From Naegleria gruberi (lineage: Eukaryota): 3,007 bases of DNA. Below the pieces are notes generated by a model that saw nothing but the letters and a program-made list of their open reading frames with translations, ran no database searches and was not told the origin of the DNA. Shown one piece after another: positions 1 through 3,007 of the stretch (within the stretch, counting starts at the first letter, position 1; every line of letters begins with the position of its first letter). The DNA lies in assembly GCA_000004985.1 (NCBI GenBank), contig GG739238.1, one strand, 5' to 3'. Both the position numbers and the translations under genes were made by a program.

Positions 1-147
1 CAAATCCAGATCAATAGCGACATTTGTAATTCCAGAATGGAGCTCCTCGATTTGGTGGCCTCTACTCTTAAAGCTATTAAAGAAGAGAAAAAGTATCACA
101 AGAAGGAGAAACGGATAGGTACATTTTGGACTGAACAAGCAAAATAA
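1..147 (+). CDS. 3' end (48 codons) of an ORF entering from upstream; unknown product with a K/E-rich tail
   Basis: Frame 1 is open from position 1 to TAA at 145-147 and reads QIQINSDICNSRMELLDLVASTLKAIKEEKKYHKKEKRIGTFWTEQAK*. No motif recognised. It could be the end of a host gene or of an upstream element ORF. Confidence 0.3.
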   Translation, partial: QIQINSDICNSRMELLDLVASTLKAIKEEKKYHKKEKRIGTFWTEQAK

Positions 148-476
148 GCAAGGACGTACAAATTGATTTTGGATGTCCAAAAACTTGTTAAGGTAAAATT
201 AAGATTTGTCCAAAAAGTTTGTTTATGAGTTTTTAATGAGTAAATCATTGAAAAATCACAATTAAATACCTAATAAGTGGAAATGATCAATGAAACTCCA
301 CTTCTCCTGTTTTTATTGTCATTTCTTTGTTGGATTTGTTGCTGGAGAATTTTTTTTCTTGAATTTGTCCTCAACATCTCTTGAATTGAATCTTTCGAGC
401 ATCATTAAAAGCACAAACAAAATGTTGCTGGCCTGTTTGTTTAAGGGTGGGCTAGCAAATTGATGTTGAACGTTCA

Positions 477-518
477 AAATGGACGTGTTGGTCCAGAGAT
501 TTTCTGGGCGTCCAATAA
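477..518. repeat. Copy A of a ~42-bp imperfect direct repeat containing palindrome TGGAC-gtgttg-GTCCA (480-495)
   Basis: aatggacgtgttggtccagagattttctgggcgtccaataat aligns to 558-598 aatggacatgttcgtccaaaatgtttctggaccaacaattt at roughly 75% identity. The 5-6-5 inverted repeat is conserved in both copies. Confidence 0.6.
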
Positions 519-557
519 TCAGTAAGCAAAATACGTTTGGGCCGTATTATTTATCTT

Positions 558-598
558 GAATGGACATGTTCGTCCAAAATGTTTCTGGACCAACAATT
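558..598. repeat. Copy B of the ~42-bp direct repeat containing palindrome TGGAC-atgttc-GTCCA (561-576)
   Basis: See copy A. The palindrome arms TGGAC/GTCCA are perfect, and the shared flank is (A)AAT ... TTTCTGG. Confidence 0.6.
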
Positions 599-668
599 TG
601 TATTTTGGACGACATAATGTACCTATCTGTTTCTCAAGGATGCTTTTAATCAAACCATTATCCGAATT

Positions 669-1394
669 ATGGAACAAATTCGAAGGAACGACGTTCATAA
701 TTGCTCATCTGGATGGAAACTTATACTTCAAACCAGAGATTTAGGGATGTTGGTTTCGATTAAGGAAGAAACCTTCAAACTTTACACTAGAAACTATAAT
801 GGTTTCTTATGGTTTATTACTGCATTCAATATTTCAATGGATGACACTTATGCTATTGAGTATTATGCAGCTTATCTTACAATTCAAGGTCAAACATCTC
901 GTGTTGAAGCCTTGAGACCATCCCTTCAATTTTGGGCCAATATTGAGAGAAGAGTTTTTCCAATTTCATGGTCTTATGATAAGATTAAAAGAGGAATTAT
1001 TTTTATTTGGTCCTTGATTGATAGAAAAGCTTTGAAACGTGATCCAATTTTCTATCATCATATTGAAGGTTTCATTCAGAGAAAAGATCATTATGATCCT
1101 TTCATTTTCAAACTCACTAGTGCCATGTTAGTCATTGGTTTCAGACTTTTCGCTAGACCAGGTGAATTAGCTAGACTCAAGTGGTGTTATGTTACAAAGC
1201 TTAGAAATGGTAACATCAAATTAGATCTCAGTGGTCACAAAACAGATTTCTTTCTACTAGAAAAGCCGATGACTATTGACAAGCATCTTGAAAATCCTTT
1301 AGTGTGTCCAGTGAAATTGCTTTTTGATTACATGTCTAATTCTGAGCGAAGTGAAGAATGGACTTGTTTTCATTGTAAACTTAATAAAATATAA
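669..1394 (+). CDS. Tyrosine recombinase-like protein (core-binding-like N-terminus plus first half of the catalytic domain; C-terminal HxxR / Tyr half absent). Possibly truncated or a pseudogene.
   Basis: 241-aa ORF. The frame is closed upstream by TAA at 615-617 and has A at -3 of the ATG. TYAIEYYAAYLTIQGQTSRVEALRPSLQFW resembles the YR N-terminal core-binding/SAM-like helix pattern. LVIGFRLFARPGELARLKWCYV matches box I (G-x-R-x-x-E-L-x-x-L-x-W, catalytic Arg-I). NIKLDLSGHKTDFFLLEKP fits the beta-hairpin Lys segment. CPVKLLFDY matches the CPVxALxxY(L) motif seen in phage-integrase, DIRS and Crypton YRs. The ORF ends 18 aa later (TAA 1392-1394), and the downstream frames up to 1523 contain no HxxR...Y pattern. 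Confidence 0.5.
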   Translation: MEQIRRNDVHNCSSGWKLILQTRDLGMLVSIKEETFKLYTRNYNGFLWFITAFNISMDDTYAIEYYAAYLTIQGQTSRVEALRPSLQFWANIERRVFPISWSYDKIKRGIIFIWSLIDRKALKRDPIFYHHIEGFIQRKDHYDPFIFKLTSAMLVIGFRLFARPGELARLKWCYVTKLRNGNIKLDLSGHKTDFFLLEKPMTIDKHLENPLVCPVKLLFDYMSNSERSEEWTCFHCKLNKI

Positions 1395-1429
1395 GTTGAG
1401 TATTTTTCCATGCTCAAAAAATTATCACA

Positions 1430-2518
1430 ATGGCCCCAACACCAACTACACCAAAGAACAACAAGAAAACGAAAGACCTTAGCTCACCTTCTGCAGGTAG
1501 CGAGCAACGAGTCATTGTTCTAACTCCTTCCACCTCAAATTCTTCTGATAGTTCTGCTATGCCTTCACCTCCTCCTGTTCAAGACACAAAGAAGAACAAG
1601 AAGAACAATCAACAAAAGATATCACCTGGCAAAGACTCAAACAACGCCAAGGTTGGTTCACAAGGTGCTTCTGCTCTCGCTTCTTCGATGGAATTGTTTG
1701 AGTCCAACCCATCTGAAGAGGTTTCTGGTAAAAGAGCAAGAGTTGCTGATGAACCAGATGATTGGTTTAAAAACCACGTCATCGACTCTTACCAAAGAAT
1801 GTTTGGTGAGTCATTGAAAGAAGATTTGCCGTTGGAAGAAGCTGTTTCTCTTCTATTCGAAACAGCCAATGCTCCATACGCTGACAACTTGGAATTCAAG
1901 AATAGAATGGCTGCTCTTGAATTGTTGTTCAGAAAAGAAGTAGACACTCCCATTCCAGATTCATCTGGTATAAAAGATATTAAAAGTAAAGGTTATTCTT
2001 TACTTTTAACAAACTCTTTTATCATCTCTCAAATCTGCAAGCGTTTGAGAGAGAGTGATACCCTTGATTTACCGCTTATTCTTCAAGGATTTGAATTTAT
2101 TCAGAATATTTCTGAGTTAAATCTAGTCTGTATTCGAATGGGCATTAAAAATGGCTTTGAAGCAGCTGAAAACTTCTCTAACAGCTACAAATCAGGAGGT
2201 TCACTTGACCAAATCACCTCCAAACAACAAGAGAAGGCGATTAAATCTGCTGAAAAAGTAAAAGCAGCAGAAACCATTGAAAAAGTCAGCAAATGGGCAA
2301 GCAGAACCCCTAATTTTCGTAAGTTCCCCACTAGATACGATAATAGACAAGCTGGTTACAACAACTACAACAACAACAACCACAACAACAACAACTTCAA
2401 CCAAGGACAAGGTAATAGTTACCAATCCAACAATCAAGGCTTCAGAAGATTCAACAATGCTCACCAAGCAAGTGGAACCGCTTCAAATTCCTCCAACTCA
2501 AACAACAACAATAAATGA
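1430..2518 (+). CDS. Gag-like structural protein candidate. It has a low-complexity S/P/K-rich N-terminus, a central ordered segment, a K/E-rich segment and an Asn/Gln-rich C-terminal tail. There is no CCHC zinc knuckle.
   Basis: 362-aa ORF with A at -3 of the ATG and yeast-like codon use. It lies immediately upstream of, and overlaps by 257 nt, an RT-encoding ORF in the +1 frame, which is the typical gag-pol arrangement. No recognisable catalytic or zinc-finger motif, so the gag assignment is positional. A host N-rich gene abutting the RT cannot be excluded. Confidence 0.5.
   Translation: MAPTPTTPKNNKKTKDLSSPSAGSEQRVIVLTPSTSNSSDSSAMPSPPPVQDTKKNKKNNQQKISPGKDSNNAKVGSQGASALASSMELFESNPSEEVSGKRARVADEPDDWFKNHVIDSYQRMFGESLKEDLPLEEAVSLLFETANAPYADNLEFKNRMAALELLFRKEVDTPIPDSSGIKDIKSKGYSLLLTNSFIISQICKRLRESDTLDLPLILQGFEFIQNISELNLVCIRMGIKNGFEAAENFSNSYKSGGSLDQITSKQQEKAIKSAEKVKAAETIEKVSKWASRTPNFRKFPTRYDNRQAGYNNYNNNNHNNNNFNQGQGNSYQSNNQGFRRFNNAHQASGTASNSSNSNNNNK
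2360..2401 (+). repeat. Imperfect (AAC)n trinucleotide repeat, 14 units with 3 variant units
   Basis: aac aac tac aac aac aac aac cac aac aac aac aac ttc aac encodes NNYNNNNHNNNNFN in the gag frame and poly-Thr in the pol (+1) frame. The antisense strand gives a spurious poly-Val ORF (2201-2467, minus). Confidence 0.8.
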
Positions 2519-3007
2519 TGCCAACATTCCTCTTGGTGGTCGTCTCTCTCGTTTTCACAGCCGATGGCAAGAATTCGGTGTTTCCAACACGATTCACGAT
2601 TGGATTCAAAACGGAATTCCAATAGATTCCGATTCAAATCGTTGGAAAAATTACCATCAGAGGAAATTCTCTACTACAGAGAAACAATGGATCCAAAAAG
2701 AGATTGGTTCCATGTTGAAAGAAGGAGTAATTGTTCACTCCCCAAACATCGTTATCAACCCTATAAACGTAGTTCCAAAGAAAGGGTCAGACCAATTCAG
2801 ATTCATTTTGGATCTAAGAAAGGTCAACGATGGAATAGATCCAGATTCCTTCAAAATGGAATCAGTGCAGAAAATCATGAAATTCCTATGCAAAGGAATG
2901 TGGGCATGCAAAATAGACCTAAAGAAAGGTTATTTTCACGTTCCCATCAAGGAGGAACATCAACACCTCCTAGGGTTCATATTCGAAGAAGAATTCTACC
3001 AATTTAC
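2457..3007 (+). CDS. Pol ORF, 5' partial: reverse transcriptase N-terminal region and RT domains 1-3, DIRS/Ngaro/gypsy-type. It continues beyond the window.
   Basis: Frame 0 is open from 2262 (stop TAA at 2259-2261) to the window end, with its first ATG at 2457 (A at -3). Translation: ...MLTKQVEPLQIPPTQTTTINDANIPLGGRLSRFHSRWQEFGVSNTIHDWIQNGIPIDSDSNRWKNYHQRKFSTTEKQWIQKEIGSMLKEGVIVHSPNIVINPINVVPKKGSDQFRFILDLRKVNDGIDPDSFKMESVQKIMKFLCKGMWACKIDLKKGYFHVPIKEEHQHLLGFIFEEEFYQF. Recognised motifs: GGRLxxFxxxW...W(I)xxG(I)xIxF pre-RT motif; VPKKxGxxRxIxDLRxLN (RT domains 1/2); IDLKKGYFHVPI (RT motif A with the catalytic Asp); LxFxxxxxxYQF preceding the expected LPFG. There is no protease (D-T/S-G) motif anywhere in the open frame between 2262 and the RT. 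Confidence 0.85.
   Translation, partial: MLTKQVEPLQIPPTQTTTINDANIPLGGRLSRFHSRWQEFGVSNTIHDWIQNGIPIDSDSNRWKNYHQRKFSTTEKQWIQKEIGSMLKEGVIVHSPNIVINPINVVPKKGSDQFRFILDLRKVNDGIDPDSFKMESVQKIMKFLCKGMWACKIDLKKGYFHVPIKEEHQHLLGFIFEEEFYQF

What the first reader, a model, noticed from the sequence alone, without database searches (positions are those of the whole stretch)
669..1394. Recombinase ORF ends before the HxxR / catalytic-tyrosine half: truncated, split or degenerate
The ORF has a core-binding-like N-terminus, the catalytic Arg-I box (ARPGELARL) and a Lys hairpin (SGHKTD). It terminates 18 residues after the CPVKLLFDY motif. The catalytic His-x-x-Arg, His/Trp and Tyr are missing in all downstream frames before gag. 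It cannot be an active recombinase as encoded. It may be a decayed copy, a frameshifted or intron-split gene, or a DNA-binding-only derivative.
Basis: partly seen in the sequence, partly recalled or inferred. Interest (0 to 1): 0.55.

Follow-up and report, generated by a model that had tools for sequence, protein, structure and literature searches.

The report
Retrotransposon recombinase gene cut by another retrotransposon
The "half recombinase" is a dead copy of a Naegleria DIRS-like retrotransposon's tyrosine-recombinase gene: its catalytic end is missing because the start of a second, different DIRS-like retrotransposon lies exactly there, which is ordinary transposon decay and not a new kind of protein.

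Summary
ORF 669-1394 is a tyrosine-recombinase (YR) gene that keeps the N-terminal domain, Arg-I and the Lys hairpin. It lacks HxxR, His/Trp and Tyr, and no frame of the window encodes them.

The cause can be read from related sequences. The ORF is 95% identical to 326-aa Naegleria gruberi proteins that carry the full catalytic end. At DNA level, window 1-107 and 636-1334 match a gag-pol-YR element on an ENA contig (L004, "family A") at 100% and 98%.

That match stops dead at 1334. From 1335/1336 the window is the 5' leader, gag and pol of another DIRS-like family ("B", 99% identical to contig L006). B's pol is 49% identical to A's, and YRs of B's lineage are about 37% identical to this ORF. 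So the last 19 codons and the stop of the ORF are read-through into B's leader.

A second lesion lies upstream: a 530-bp MITE-like insertion (106-635, 23-nt inverted ends, AAG duplication). It cuts A's pol and the long YR frame. All five substitutions against intact copies are non-synonymous.

Best reading: element B inserted into, or was joined to, A's YR gene. Intron-splitting, a correctable frameshift and a DNA-binding-only derivative are not supported. This is a new member of a known kind, of low interest.

The parts
1..105 (+). Element A (L004-like DIRS-like family): 3' part of the pol ORF (frame 2, ...ATFVIPEWSSSIWWPLL...), with the overlapping long YR reading frame in frame 1 (...DICNSRMELLDLVASTLKAIKEEKKYHKK)
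   Evidence: Window 1-107 = L004 2940-3046 at 100%. Frames compared.
103..105 (.). AAG, left copy of the 3-bp target-site duplication of the MITE-like insertion (the right copy is at 636-638)
   Evidence: L004 has a single AAGGA where the window has one copy on each side of the insert. Only a 3-bp duplication makes the two inverted ends symmetrical.
106..635 (.). 530-bp non-coding insertion with 23-nt terminal inverted repeats (GAGAAACGGATAGGTACATTTTG / CATAATGTACCTATCTGTTTCTC) and repeated subterminal GTCCAAAA/TTTTGGAC motifs. It looks like a MITE-like DNA transposon and interrupts A's pol and the YR frame.
   Evidence: Inverted repeat I2, 91% complementary. Absent from L004, which is 98-100% identical on both sides. 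None of the six possible excision registers gives GT...AG, read directly from the sequence. Folds as a long hairpin, z = -6.2. No other copy found.
640..744 (+). Element A: last 34 codons and stop of pol (MLLIKPLSELWNKFEGTTFIIAHLDGNLYFKPEI*), displaced from the rest of pol by the insertion. It overlaps the start of the ORF in the finding.
   Evidence: Identical to the pol tail of L004.
669..1334 (+). Element A: YR gene fragment, aa 1-222 of the 326-aa protein. It holds the helical N-terminal (core-binding-like) domain, Arg-I (R163, nt 1155-1157) and the beta-hairpin Lys (K191, nt 1239-1241). Homology to intact copies ends at the ATG 1332-1334.
   Evidence: Window 636-1334 = L004 3042-3731 at 98%. 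95% identical to P0001 over aa 1-226. Family alignment. YR fold.
1335..1394 (+). Foreign tail of the ORF: 19 codons (SNSERSEEWTCFHCKLNKI) plus TAA. This is read-through into element B's 5' leader and is not recombinase sequence.
   Evidence: No match to L004 beyond 1334. It matches the L005 leader instead.
1335..1429 (+). Element B (L006-like DIRS-like family): 5' leader, from the element's 5' end to the gag ATG. It contains conserved blocks GTGAAGAATGGACTTGTTTTCATTGTAAAC and ATGCTCAAAAAA(A)TT.
   Evidence: Window 1336-1433 = L005 117-212 at 81%, with unrelated DNA upstream in L005. Window 1389 onwards = L006 from nt 1 at 99%. The leader is 95 nt here; in L004 the repeat start lies 98 nt before the gag ATG.
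1430..2518 (+). Element B gag ORF (362 aa), ending in TGA at 2516-2518
   Evidence: 99% identical to N. gruberi P0022 and 56% to the L005 gag. No blastp hit to the L004 gag at E <= 1e-3.
2262..3007 (+). Element B pol frame (+1 relative to gag). The conserved pol sequence begins just after the gag stop, and the Pfam RVT_1 match covers about 2772-2987 (aa 82-153 of the translated fragment 2529-3005). The frame runs off the window.
   Evidence: RVT_1, E 4.5e-5, on the 159-aa fragment. 76% identical to L003 pol, 72% to L005 and 49% to L004.
2519..3007 (+). Element B: stop-free frame in phase with gag and overlapping pol. This is the start of B's own long ORF, which in relatives ends in the YR domain.
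   Evidence: Stop avoidance tested in relatives.

Best explanation
The window holds the junction of two different DIRS-like (tyrosine-recombinase) retrotransposons of Naegleria. Both have the layout leader - gag - pol (RT/RNase H/methyltransferase-like) - YR.

Element A occupies window 1-1334. It has been inactivated twice.

(1) A 530-bp MITE-like DNA transposon (106-635) inserted 34 codons before the pol stop. It separates the YR domain from the long upstream reading frame that overlaps pol.

(2) A's YR gene is cut after codon 222 (nt 1334), between the Lys hairpin and the HxxR box. The exact 5' end of element B, from a distinct family, lies there.

The most likely event is integration of B into A's YR gene. 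B would have entered through the break-and-join site at its leader start, as DIRS-type elements are thought to integrate: recombinase-mediated and without a target duplication. In that case the remaining 315 nt of A's YR lie one B-length further downstream, outside the window.

It is a pseudogene fragment with no catalytic His-x-x-Arg, His/Trp or Tyr.

Shown: the identity of both elements, both breakpoints to within 1-2 nt, the absence of the C-terminus from the window, and the existence of intact paralogues.

Inferred: that the junction arose by insertion of B rather than by another rearrangement, and that the fragment has no function.
For: A is identified by blastn: window 1-107 and 636-1334 match L004 at 100% and 98%, and nothing beyond 1334 matches apart from a weak 68% pol hit.

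L004 has gag 159-1277, pol 1237-3150 and YR 3153-4046. Its pol shows RVT_1 at E 3e-26 plus weak Dam and RVT_3 hits.

Intact 326-aa paralogues with GHSLRIG/RHK/PYQR exist. They have YR sequence and fold.

B is identified by window 1389-3007 = L006 1-1616 at 99.1%. B's gag is 99% identical to N. gruberi P0022.

B differs from A. Pol is 49% identical to L004 but 72-76% to L003 and L005. The window YR is 93.5% identical to L004's YR but only 37% to the L003 and L005 YRs.

B's 5' end is supported three ways. Window 1336-1433 aligns to the L005 leader while the upstream flanks are unrelated. The conserved leader blocks are shared by the L004, L005 and L007 leaders. The distance from the junction to the gag ATG is 95 nt, against 98 nt from the L004 repeat start to its gag ATG.

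No C-terminal remnant exists in any frame.

Decay is visible: 5 of 5 substitutions against L004/P0001 are non-synonymous. The MITE has TIRs and a TSD and is absent from L004.

Piednoel et al. 2011 (PMC3266345) already reported DIRS1-like copies in N. gruberi carrying many frameshifts and indels.
Against: The window ends inside B's pol, so B's 3' end and the predicted remainder of A's YR were not seen. The insertion is therefore inferred from one junction only.

The only other copy of family B (L006) starts at window position 1389. B's first 54 nt are therefore supported only by homology to other families (L005, L004, L007).

The N. gruberi genome itself could not be read with these tools. Two metagenome scans found nothing.

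Five substitutions are too few to distinguish neutrality from weak constraint statistically.
Confidence: 0.72

Rival explanations
1. The junction was made by a rearrangement and not by insertion of B into A. One route is a deletion or ectopic recombination between two neighbouring elements in a transposon cluster. Another is a chimeric cDNA: reverse transcriptase copying B's RNA reaches its 5' end and switches to the middle of an A RNA. In either case A's YR 3' part does not exist downstream of B.
For: Only one junction is visible. Other copies also have YR genes truncated or rearranged at other positions: L006 ends after HxxR next to non-transposon DNA, L001/L002 diverge after GHSLRIGA, and L008 has an internal deletion. 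So 3' damage to the YR is common. A switch at the 5' end of B's RNA would also put B's exact 5' terminus at the junction.
Against: A random deletion would have to end exactly at B's first nucleotide. That position is the one where L005 homology and the L004 repeat begin. No homology longer than a few bases is shared at the breakpoint. The 12-nt TTGTTTTCATTG shared by B's leader and A's YR is 30-37 nt away and out of register.
Confidence: 0.17
2. Assembly chimera: the A|B junction does not exist in the organism and was created when repeated elements were assembled.
For: Both elements are multi-copy repeats. Related contigs come from short-read assemblies, and one shows k-mer-length identical ends (L007).
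Against: A and B share no long identical word at the junction on which an assembler could cross over. The junction falls on a biologically meaningful point, B's 5' terminus.
Confidence: 0.05
3. A retained, truncated recombinase that works as a DNA-binding-only protein. It would keep the core-binding domain and part of the catalytic domain, in the way ALOG domains derive from DIRS-type recombinase N-termini.
For: The ORF is intact for 241 codons and keeps the helical N-terminal domain. There is precedent for domesticated YR N-terminal domains (PMC3537659).
Against: The C-terminal 19 residues are accidental leader sequence. The cut falls inside the catalytic domain, not at a domain boundary (secondary structure). 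All 5 differences from intact copies change amino acids. The upstream frame is broken by a transposon. No identical protein is recorded anywhere. The locus is about 98% identical to active-looking copies, so it is young.
Confidence: 0.03
4. The gene is intact but split by an intron, or shifted by a sequencing error, so the catalytic half is recoverable near 1375-1430.
For: GT dinucleotides at 1375 and 1395. A faint LFSL-like string in another frame at about 1364-1375.
Against: No frame of the window encodes the C-terminus (best E 1.1). Only 35 nt separate the stop from the gag ATG. The LFSL-like 12-mer belongs to a 30-nt block conserved in the leader of an unrelated family's copy (L005). Intact copies have no intron there (L004).
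Confidence: 0.02

Closest known systems
DIRS1-like / PAT-like retrotransposons (order DIRS), as surveyed by Piednoel et al. 2011 (PMC3266345), which lists 7 sequences in 6 families for Naegleria gruberi
   Same: Gag, then RT/RNase H/methyltransferase-like pol, then a tyrosine recombinase. There is a long overlap of the YR frame with pol, with the catalytic domain in the non-overlapping 3' end. Short complementary segments lie around the 3'UTR/leader junction. Many copies are damaged.
   Different: The related contigs show a direct repeat of the leader and gag start after the YR (L004), or a circular/tandem assembly (L007), and not clear inverted terminal repeats. Whether these families are DIRS1-like (ITR + ICR) or PAT-like (split direct repeats) could not be settled. 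The window copy is a dead fragment.
Dictyostelium DIRS-1 clusters, where copies insert into one another and form the centromeric repeat arrays (own knowledge; cluster/centromere statement in the abstract of PMC3950715, listed)
   Same: One DIRS-type element interrupted by another, giving truncated recombinase, pol and gag fragments side by side.
   Different: Here the two elements belong to different families (49% pol identity). Nothing is known about chromosomal location. Only one junction is seen.
Cre / XerA / XerC-D / lambda Int tyrosine recombinases
   Same: Intact paralogues share the two-domain fold and the R...K...HxxR...H/W...Y catalytic set. SGHSLRIGA...RH...Y aligns with Cre SGHSARVGA...GW...Y.
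   Different: The window ORF keeps only R and K. It lacks HxxR, H/W and the nucleophilic Tyr, so it cannot cleave DNA.
MITEs (non-autonomous TIR DNA transposons)
   Same: The 530-bp non-coding insert has 23-nt terminal inverted repeats, subterminal repeated motifs, a hairpin-forming potential and a short target duplication.
   Different: No second copy and no autonomous partner were found. The superfamily is unassigned: a 3-bp AAG duplication fits none uniquely.

Membership tests
Tyrosine recombinase (Phage_integrase, PF00589) catalytic domain | Significant sequence or profile match to the family | tested here: met
   The window ORF alone gives no Pfam hit. Its 95%-identical full-length paralogue P0001 gives PF00589 at E 1.8e-4, 21.8 bits, below the 27.1-bit cut-off. 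Relative P0009 gives 28.6 bits, above the cut-off. The family profile hits XerA at 9e-5 and Cre at 3e-4.
Tyrosine recombinase (Phage_integrase, PF00589) catalytic domain | Two-domain YR fold | tested here: met
   The model of P0001 (pLDDT 65) has as its top 50 PDB matches only Cre, Tre, XerA, lambda Int, XerD, IntI and a staphylococcal integrase. E reaches 4.5e-7 with about 320 aligned columns. TM-scores are low (about 0.3), as expected for a mediocre two-domain model.
Tyrosine recombinase (Phage_integrase, PF00589) catalytic domain | Complete catalytic set: Arg-I, Lys, His-x-x-Arg, His/Trp and the nucleophilic Tyr | tested here: not met
   The window ORF has R163 and K191 only. HxxR, H/W and Y are absent from the ORF and from all six frames of the window. 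The intact paralogues have all of them.
DIRS-order retrotransposon (element A and element B) | Gag + RT/RNase H pol + tyrosine recombinase in one unit, with no DDE integrase | tested here: met
   L004 (family A) has gag 159-1277, pol with RVT_1 at 3e-26, and YR 3153-4046. L006 (family B) has gag, pol and YR. The window shows A's pol end + YR and B's gag + RT.
DIRS1-like / PAT-like (as opposed to Ngaro / VIPER) | Methyltransferase-like domain in pol, and a long pol/YR ORF overlap | tested here: inconclusive
   The Dam (PF05869) hit in L004 pol is weak: E 7.8e-4, 19.6 bits, below the 28.1-bit cut-off. A faint Dam hit is recorded for L001. The long overlap is clearly present: 1-3 stops observed against 33-42 expected, 0/2000 shuffles.
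DIRS1-like sensu stricto | Inverted terminal repeats plus internal complementary regions | tested here: inconclusive
   No complete integrated copy with both ends is available. L004 shows a 246-nt direct repeat (61-306 = 4079-4324, 97%) and a 25-nt arm complementary to the leader. L007 assembles as a 3980-nt circle or tandem. This is compatible with split direct repeats or tandem copies. ITRs were not seen.
MITE / TIR DNA transposon (insert 106-635) | Terminal inverted repeats, a target-site duplication, an empty site in a homologous sequence, and multiple copies | tested here: inconclusive
   TIRs of 23 nt at 91% complementarity, a 3-bp AAG duplication and an empty site in L004 are met. Multiple copies were not shown: no other copy in the loci held or in JGI metagenomes.

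The most novel reading that the evidence does not exclude
The junction may not be an accident. B may have been integrated by its own recombinase at a preferred target inside another DIRS-like element's recombinase gene. This would be self-targeting nesting, as in Dictyostelium DIRS-1 arrays. It would both build transposon clusters and knock out a competitor's integration enzyme.

Weak hints: the exact use of B's leader start, an ACATG shared by this junction and by the L004 3'UTR|leader junction, and a second possible YR-interrupting element in L001/L002.
Probability: 0.12. Interest if true: 0.45.

Novelty: new member of a known kind. Interest (0 to 1): 0.15.

Why it matters
For the finding itself, very little. 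It is a pseudogenised transposon copy, and DIRS1-like elements with many lesions were already reported for N. gruberi.

It has three practical uses.

(1) It warns annotators that the "predicted proteins" of Naegleria in this family are transposon recombinases.

(2) It gives base-level 5' termini, and the 3'UTR|leader junction, for at least two Naegleria DIRS-like families.

(3) Relatives collected on the way show a striking coding layout: gag, then one TGA, then a ~900-codon in-phase ORF ending in the recombinase, with pol in the +1 frame. If that layout is real, it makes the expression of the recombinase in DIRS-like elements experimentally approachable.

Tried and rejected
(1) Pfam and PDB sequence searches with the 241-aa ORF alone gave no family and only noise. 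The YR assignment needed the full-length paralogues.

(2) Exact look-ups of the window ORF, P0001, P0003 and P0022 in the contig collection found nothing on record. The N. gruberi genomic context of this copy therefore could not be read.

(3) The metagenome scan for B's conserved leader 23-mer gave 0 hits. The scan for the MITE terminal repeat also gave 0 hits.

(4) I searched with the missing C-terminal 105 aa, hoping for a contig with B's 3' end joined to A's YR remainder. It returned only L008, an unrelated YR pseudogene with an internal deletion.

(5) Intron hypothesis for 106-635: none of the six excision registers allowed by the AAGGA duplication gives GT...AG. Rejected.

(6) Intron or splice-donor hypothesis at 1375-1400: rejected, because that DNA is conserved leader of another element.

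(7) The LFSL-like string at 1364-1375 as a frameshifted YR remnant: rejected, because it lies in a 30-nt block identical in the L005 leader. The 12-nt identity with A's YR is out of register and is treated as coincidence, not proven.

(8) Rfam and tRNA scans of the window found nothing.

(9) A literature search for how DIRS recombinase ORFs are translated found nothing specific.

Full report
**1. What is in the window**

The 3007-nt window is AT-rich eukaryotic DNA. ORF 669-1394 (+) encodes 241 aa.

- ARPGELARL at aa 162-170
- SGHKTD at aa 188-193
- CPVKLLFDY at aa 213-221

The ORF stops 20 residues after the last motif, not 18.

**2. Is it a tyrosine recombinase?**

On its own the ORF matches no Pfam family and nothing meaningful in the PDB.

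A search of the large protein collection gives 13 relatives. The best is Naegleria gruberi "predicted protein" P0001 (XP_002679188, 326 aa), at 95% identity and E 8e-144. A near-identical paralogue is P0014. These proteins run on past the point where the window ORF ends, with ...SGHSLRIGATTE...GTRHKDVKSLQPYQR...

In an alignment of 11 family members, R163, K191, H269, R272 and Y304 (P0001 numbering) are invariant or nearly so.

A profile of the alignment finds XerA (E 9e-5) and Cre (E about 3e-4). The match is on SGHSxRIGA...W/H...Y, which aligns with Cre's SGHSARVGA...GW...Y box.

PF00589 is hit weakly by P0001 (21.8 bits, below the 27.1 cut-off) and above the cut-off by P0009 (28.6 bits).

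An AlphaFold model of P0001 is of moderate quality (pLDDT 65). It retrieves only tyrosine recombinases from the PDB, aligned over about 320 columns, with E down to 4.5e-7.

So the family is a genuine YR family. The window ORF keeps its N-terminal helical domain, Arg-I and the hairpin Lys. It lacks HxxR, His/Trp and Tyr.

tblastn with the missing 105 residues finds nothing in any of the six frames of the window (best E 1.1).

**3. Why it is truncated**

A member of the same 90% cluster (P0017) lies on an ENA contig, L004 (4324 nt). That contig carries a complete unit: gag 159-1277, pol 1237-3150 and YR 3153-4046. Its pol has RVT_1 at E 3e-26 plus weak RNase H-like and Dam hits.

blastn of the window against L004 is decisive:
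- Window 1-107 = L004 2940-3046 at 100%.
- Window 636-1334 = L004 3042-3731 at 98%.
- Nothing else matches, apart from a 68% match in the RT region.

I call this family A. Two things follow.

First, window 106-635 is an insertion relative to A.

Second, A's homology stops at nt 1334. That is the ATG of ...LLFDYM, 315 nt before the YR stop.

**4. What lies beyond 1334**

Window 1389-3007 is 99.1% identical to the first 1616 nt of another ENA contig from the same sample, L006. L006 carries gag, pol and its own YR. The window gag is also 99% identical to N. gruberi P0022. I call this family B.

B is not A:
- B's pol fragment is 76%, 72%, 59% and 49% identical to the pols of L003, L005, L001 and L004.
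- The window YR is 93.5% identical to L004's YR, but only 37% to the L003 and L005 YRs.
- B's gag gives no blastp hit to the L004 gag at E <= 1e-3.

The stretch 1336-1433 aligns with the leader upstream of gag in L005. This includes a perfect 30-mer, GTGAAGAATGGACTTGTTTTCATTGTAAAC. The sequences upstream of that point are unrelated in the two loci.

A second block, ATGCTCAAAAAA(A)TT, sits just before the gag ATG. It is shared by the leaders of L004, L005, L007 and the window.

In L004 the direct repeat that includes the leader starts 98 nt before the gag ATG. In the window the A|B junction is 95 nt before the gag ATG.

The junction therefore coincides, within one or two bases, with the 5' terminus of element B. 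Residues 223-241 of the ORF (SNSERSEEWTCFHCKLNKI) and its stop codon are B's leader read in A's frame.

**5. The upstream lesion**

The 530-bp insert at 106-635 has these features:
- 23-nt inverted ends, 91% complementary.
- Repeated subterminal GTCCAAAA/TTTTGGAC motifs.
- A strong hairpin-forming potential, z = -6.2.
- A flanking AAG duplication, where L004 has a single copy.

None of the six excision registers permitted by the duplicated AAGGA yields GT...AG, so it is not an intron. It looks like a MITE. No second copy was found, so that label stays provisional.

It cuts A's pol 34 codons before its stop. The displaced tail, MLLIKPLSELWNKF...KPEI*, is at 640-744.

It also cuts the YR reading frame. 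In relatives that frame does not begin at the ATG corresponding to 669. It is open for 348-619 codons upstream, across pol.

That overlap is not chance. The YR frame contains 1, 1, 1 and 3 stops inside pol in L001, L003, L005 and L004. Shuffling pol's synonymous codons gives 33-42 expected stops, and 0 of 2000 shuffles reached the observed value.

Long pol/YR overlap, with the catalytic domain in the non-overlapping 3' end, is a described feature of DIRS1-like elements (PMC3266345).

**6. State of the copy**

Against L004 the YR segment differs by five substitutions and one 9-nt in-frame indel. All five substitutions change the amino acid. At all five, P0001 agrees with L004, so the changes are private to the window copy.

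Five events are too few for a formal test. They do fit relaxed constraint and give no sign of a conserved new function.

**7. Interpretation**

The best explanation (about 0.7) is that element B integrated into the YR gene of element A. That leaves A's codons 1-222 upstream and, by prediction, A's last 105 codons beyond B's 3' end, outside the window.

DIRS-type elements are thought to integrate by recombinase action at the joined-ends site without a target duplication (PMC3266345). In Dictyostelium they pile into one another (own knowledge). A junction at B's exact leader start is what that model predicts.

Rivals:
- A deletion or a template-switch chimera ending at B's 5' end (about 0.17).
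- An assembly chimera (about 0.05).
- A retained DNA-binding-only derivative (about 0.03).
- An intron-split or frameshifted but intact gene (about 0.02).

The last is effectively excluded.

What I could not do is read the source contig past the window, or the N. gruberi genome itself. The insertion therefore rests on one junction.

**8. Comparison with what is known, and novelty**

Piednoel et al. 2011 list 7 DIRS1-like sequences in 6 families for N. gruberi. They note too many frameshifts and indels to place them.

The window adds a well-resolved example of two such families, and nothing categorically new.

Whether these families have ITR/ICR termini (DIRS1-like proper) or split direct repeats (PAT-like) is unresolved. 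L004 shows a 246-nt direct repeat and a 25-nt arm complementary to the leader. L007 assembles as a 3980-nt circle or tandem.

Verdict: a real feature, correctly observed, with an ordinary cause. It is a new member of a known kind, and interest is low (0.15).

**9. Side observation worth a note**

In the relatives that look intact (L007, L001, L003), gag and the roughly 900-codon ORF ending in the YR are in the same frame, separated by a single TGA. The same holds in L004 apart from two extra stops, and in window element B as far as it is visible (TGA at 2516-2518). The codon is TGA-C in four relatives and TGA-T in B.

Pol is in the +1 frame. Its conserved N-terminus begins a few codons after that TGA.

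This suggests read-through for the recombinase and a +1 shift for pol. I found no paper addressing this. It is untested.

Noticed in passing
window 2516-3007; L007 202-4056; L001 193-3642; L003 2-3718; L004 120-4043: Gag and the ~900-codon ORF that ends in the recombinase are in one frame, separated by a single TGA (TGA-C in four relatives, TGA-T in the window). Pol is in the +1 frame, and its conserved start lies a few codons after that TGA. This suggests stop read-through for the recombinase and a +1 shift for pol.
   Followed up: partly
L001 917-2845, L003 810-2816, L005 1100-3037, L004 1237-3150: The recombinase frame overlapping pol is almost stop-free: 1-3 stops against 33-42 expected from synonymous-codon shuffles, 0/2000. 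The other alternative frame has more stops than expected. This is the 'long ORF overlap' known for DIRS1-like elements, shown here statistically.
   Followed up: yes
window 106-635: A 530-bp MITE-like insertion with 23-nt inverted ends, an AAG target duplication and repeated GTCCAAAA/TTTTGGAC motifs. The superfamily is unknown and no other copy was found.
   Followed up: partly
window 1364-1375 and L004 3768-3779: The 12-mer TTGTTTTCATTG occurs in B's conserved leader and also in A's YR gene, where it encodes the conserved LFSL. It lies 30 and 37 nt from the breakpoint, so out of register. Probably coincidence, but not explained.
   Followed up: partly
window 1329-1335; L004 4074-4080: The A|B junction (TTACATG|TCTAATTC) and L004's own 3'UTR|leader junction (AAACATG|TTCTTATC) both read ACATGT. 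This could be a short recombination core or could be chance. L005's junction (GATCG|CTAATTC) does not share it.
   Followed up: no
L004 4042-4066 vs 101-125 and 4119-4143: A 25-nt segment just after the YR stop is complementary (80%) to a segment of the leader. An inverted repeat therefore brackets the 3'UTR|leader junction, reminiscent of DIRS1 terminal/internal complementary regions. By eye, L007 has similar complementary wording.
   Followed up: no
L007 1-127 and 3981-4107: The contig has 127-nt ends that are 100% identical, equal to the assembler's k. The element therefore assembles as a 3980-nt circle or tandem repeat: YR stop, then about 150 nt, then the gag ATG.
   Followed up: no
L006 3700-4239; L001 3600-3740 (= L002 2416-2556); L008 200-330: Other copies also have damaged recombinase genes. 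L006 (family B) ends after HxxR next to non-transposon DNA that carries a minus-strand ORF. L001/L002 diverge after GHSLRIGA and are followed by what looks like a new gag start. L008 has an internal deletion that removes Arg-I.
   Followed up: partly
L004 4177-4179 vs 159-161: In the second copy of the L004 leader/gag repeat, the gag start ATG is ATA. The downstream repeat is therefore not a functional gag start.
   Followed up: no
window 2340-2515: The C-terminal tail of B's gag is an Asn/Gln-rich low-complexity run (NNYNNNNHNNNNFNQGQGNSYQSNNQ...). No zinc knuckle and no Pfam domain was detected in gag.
   Followed up: no
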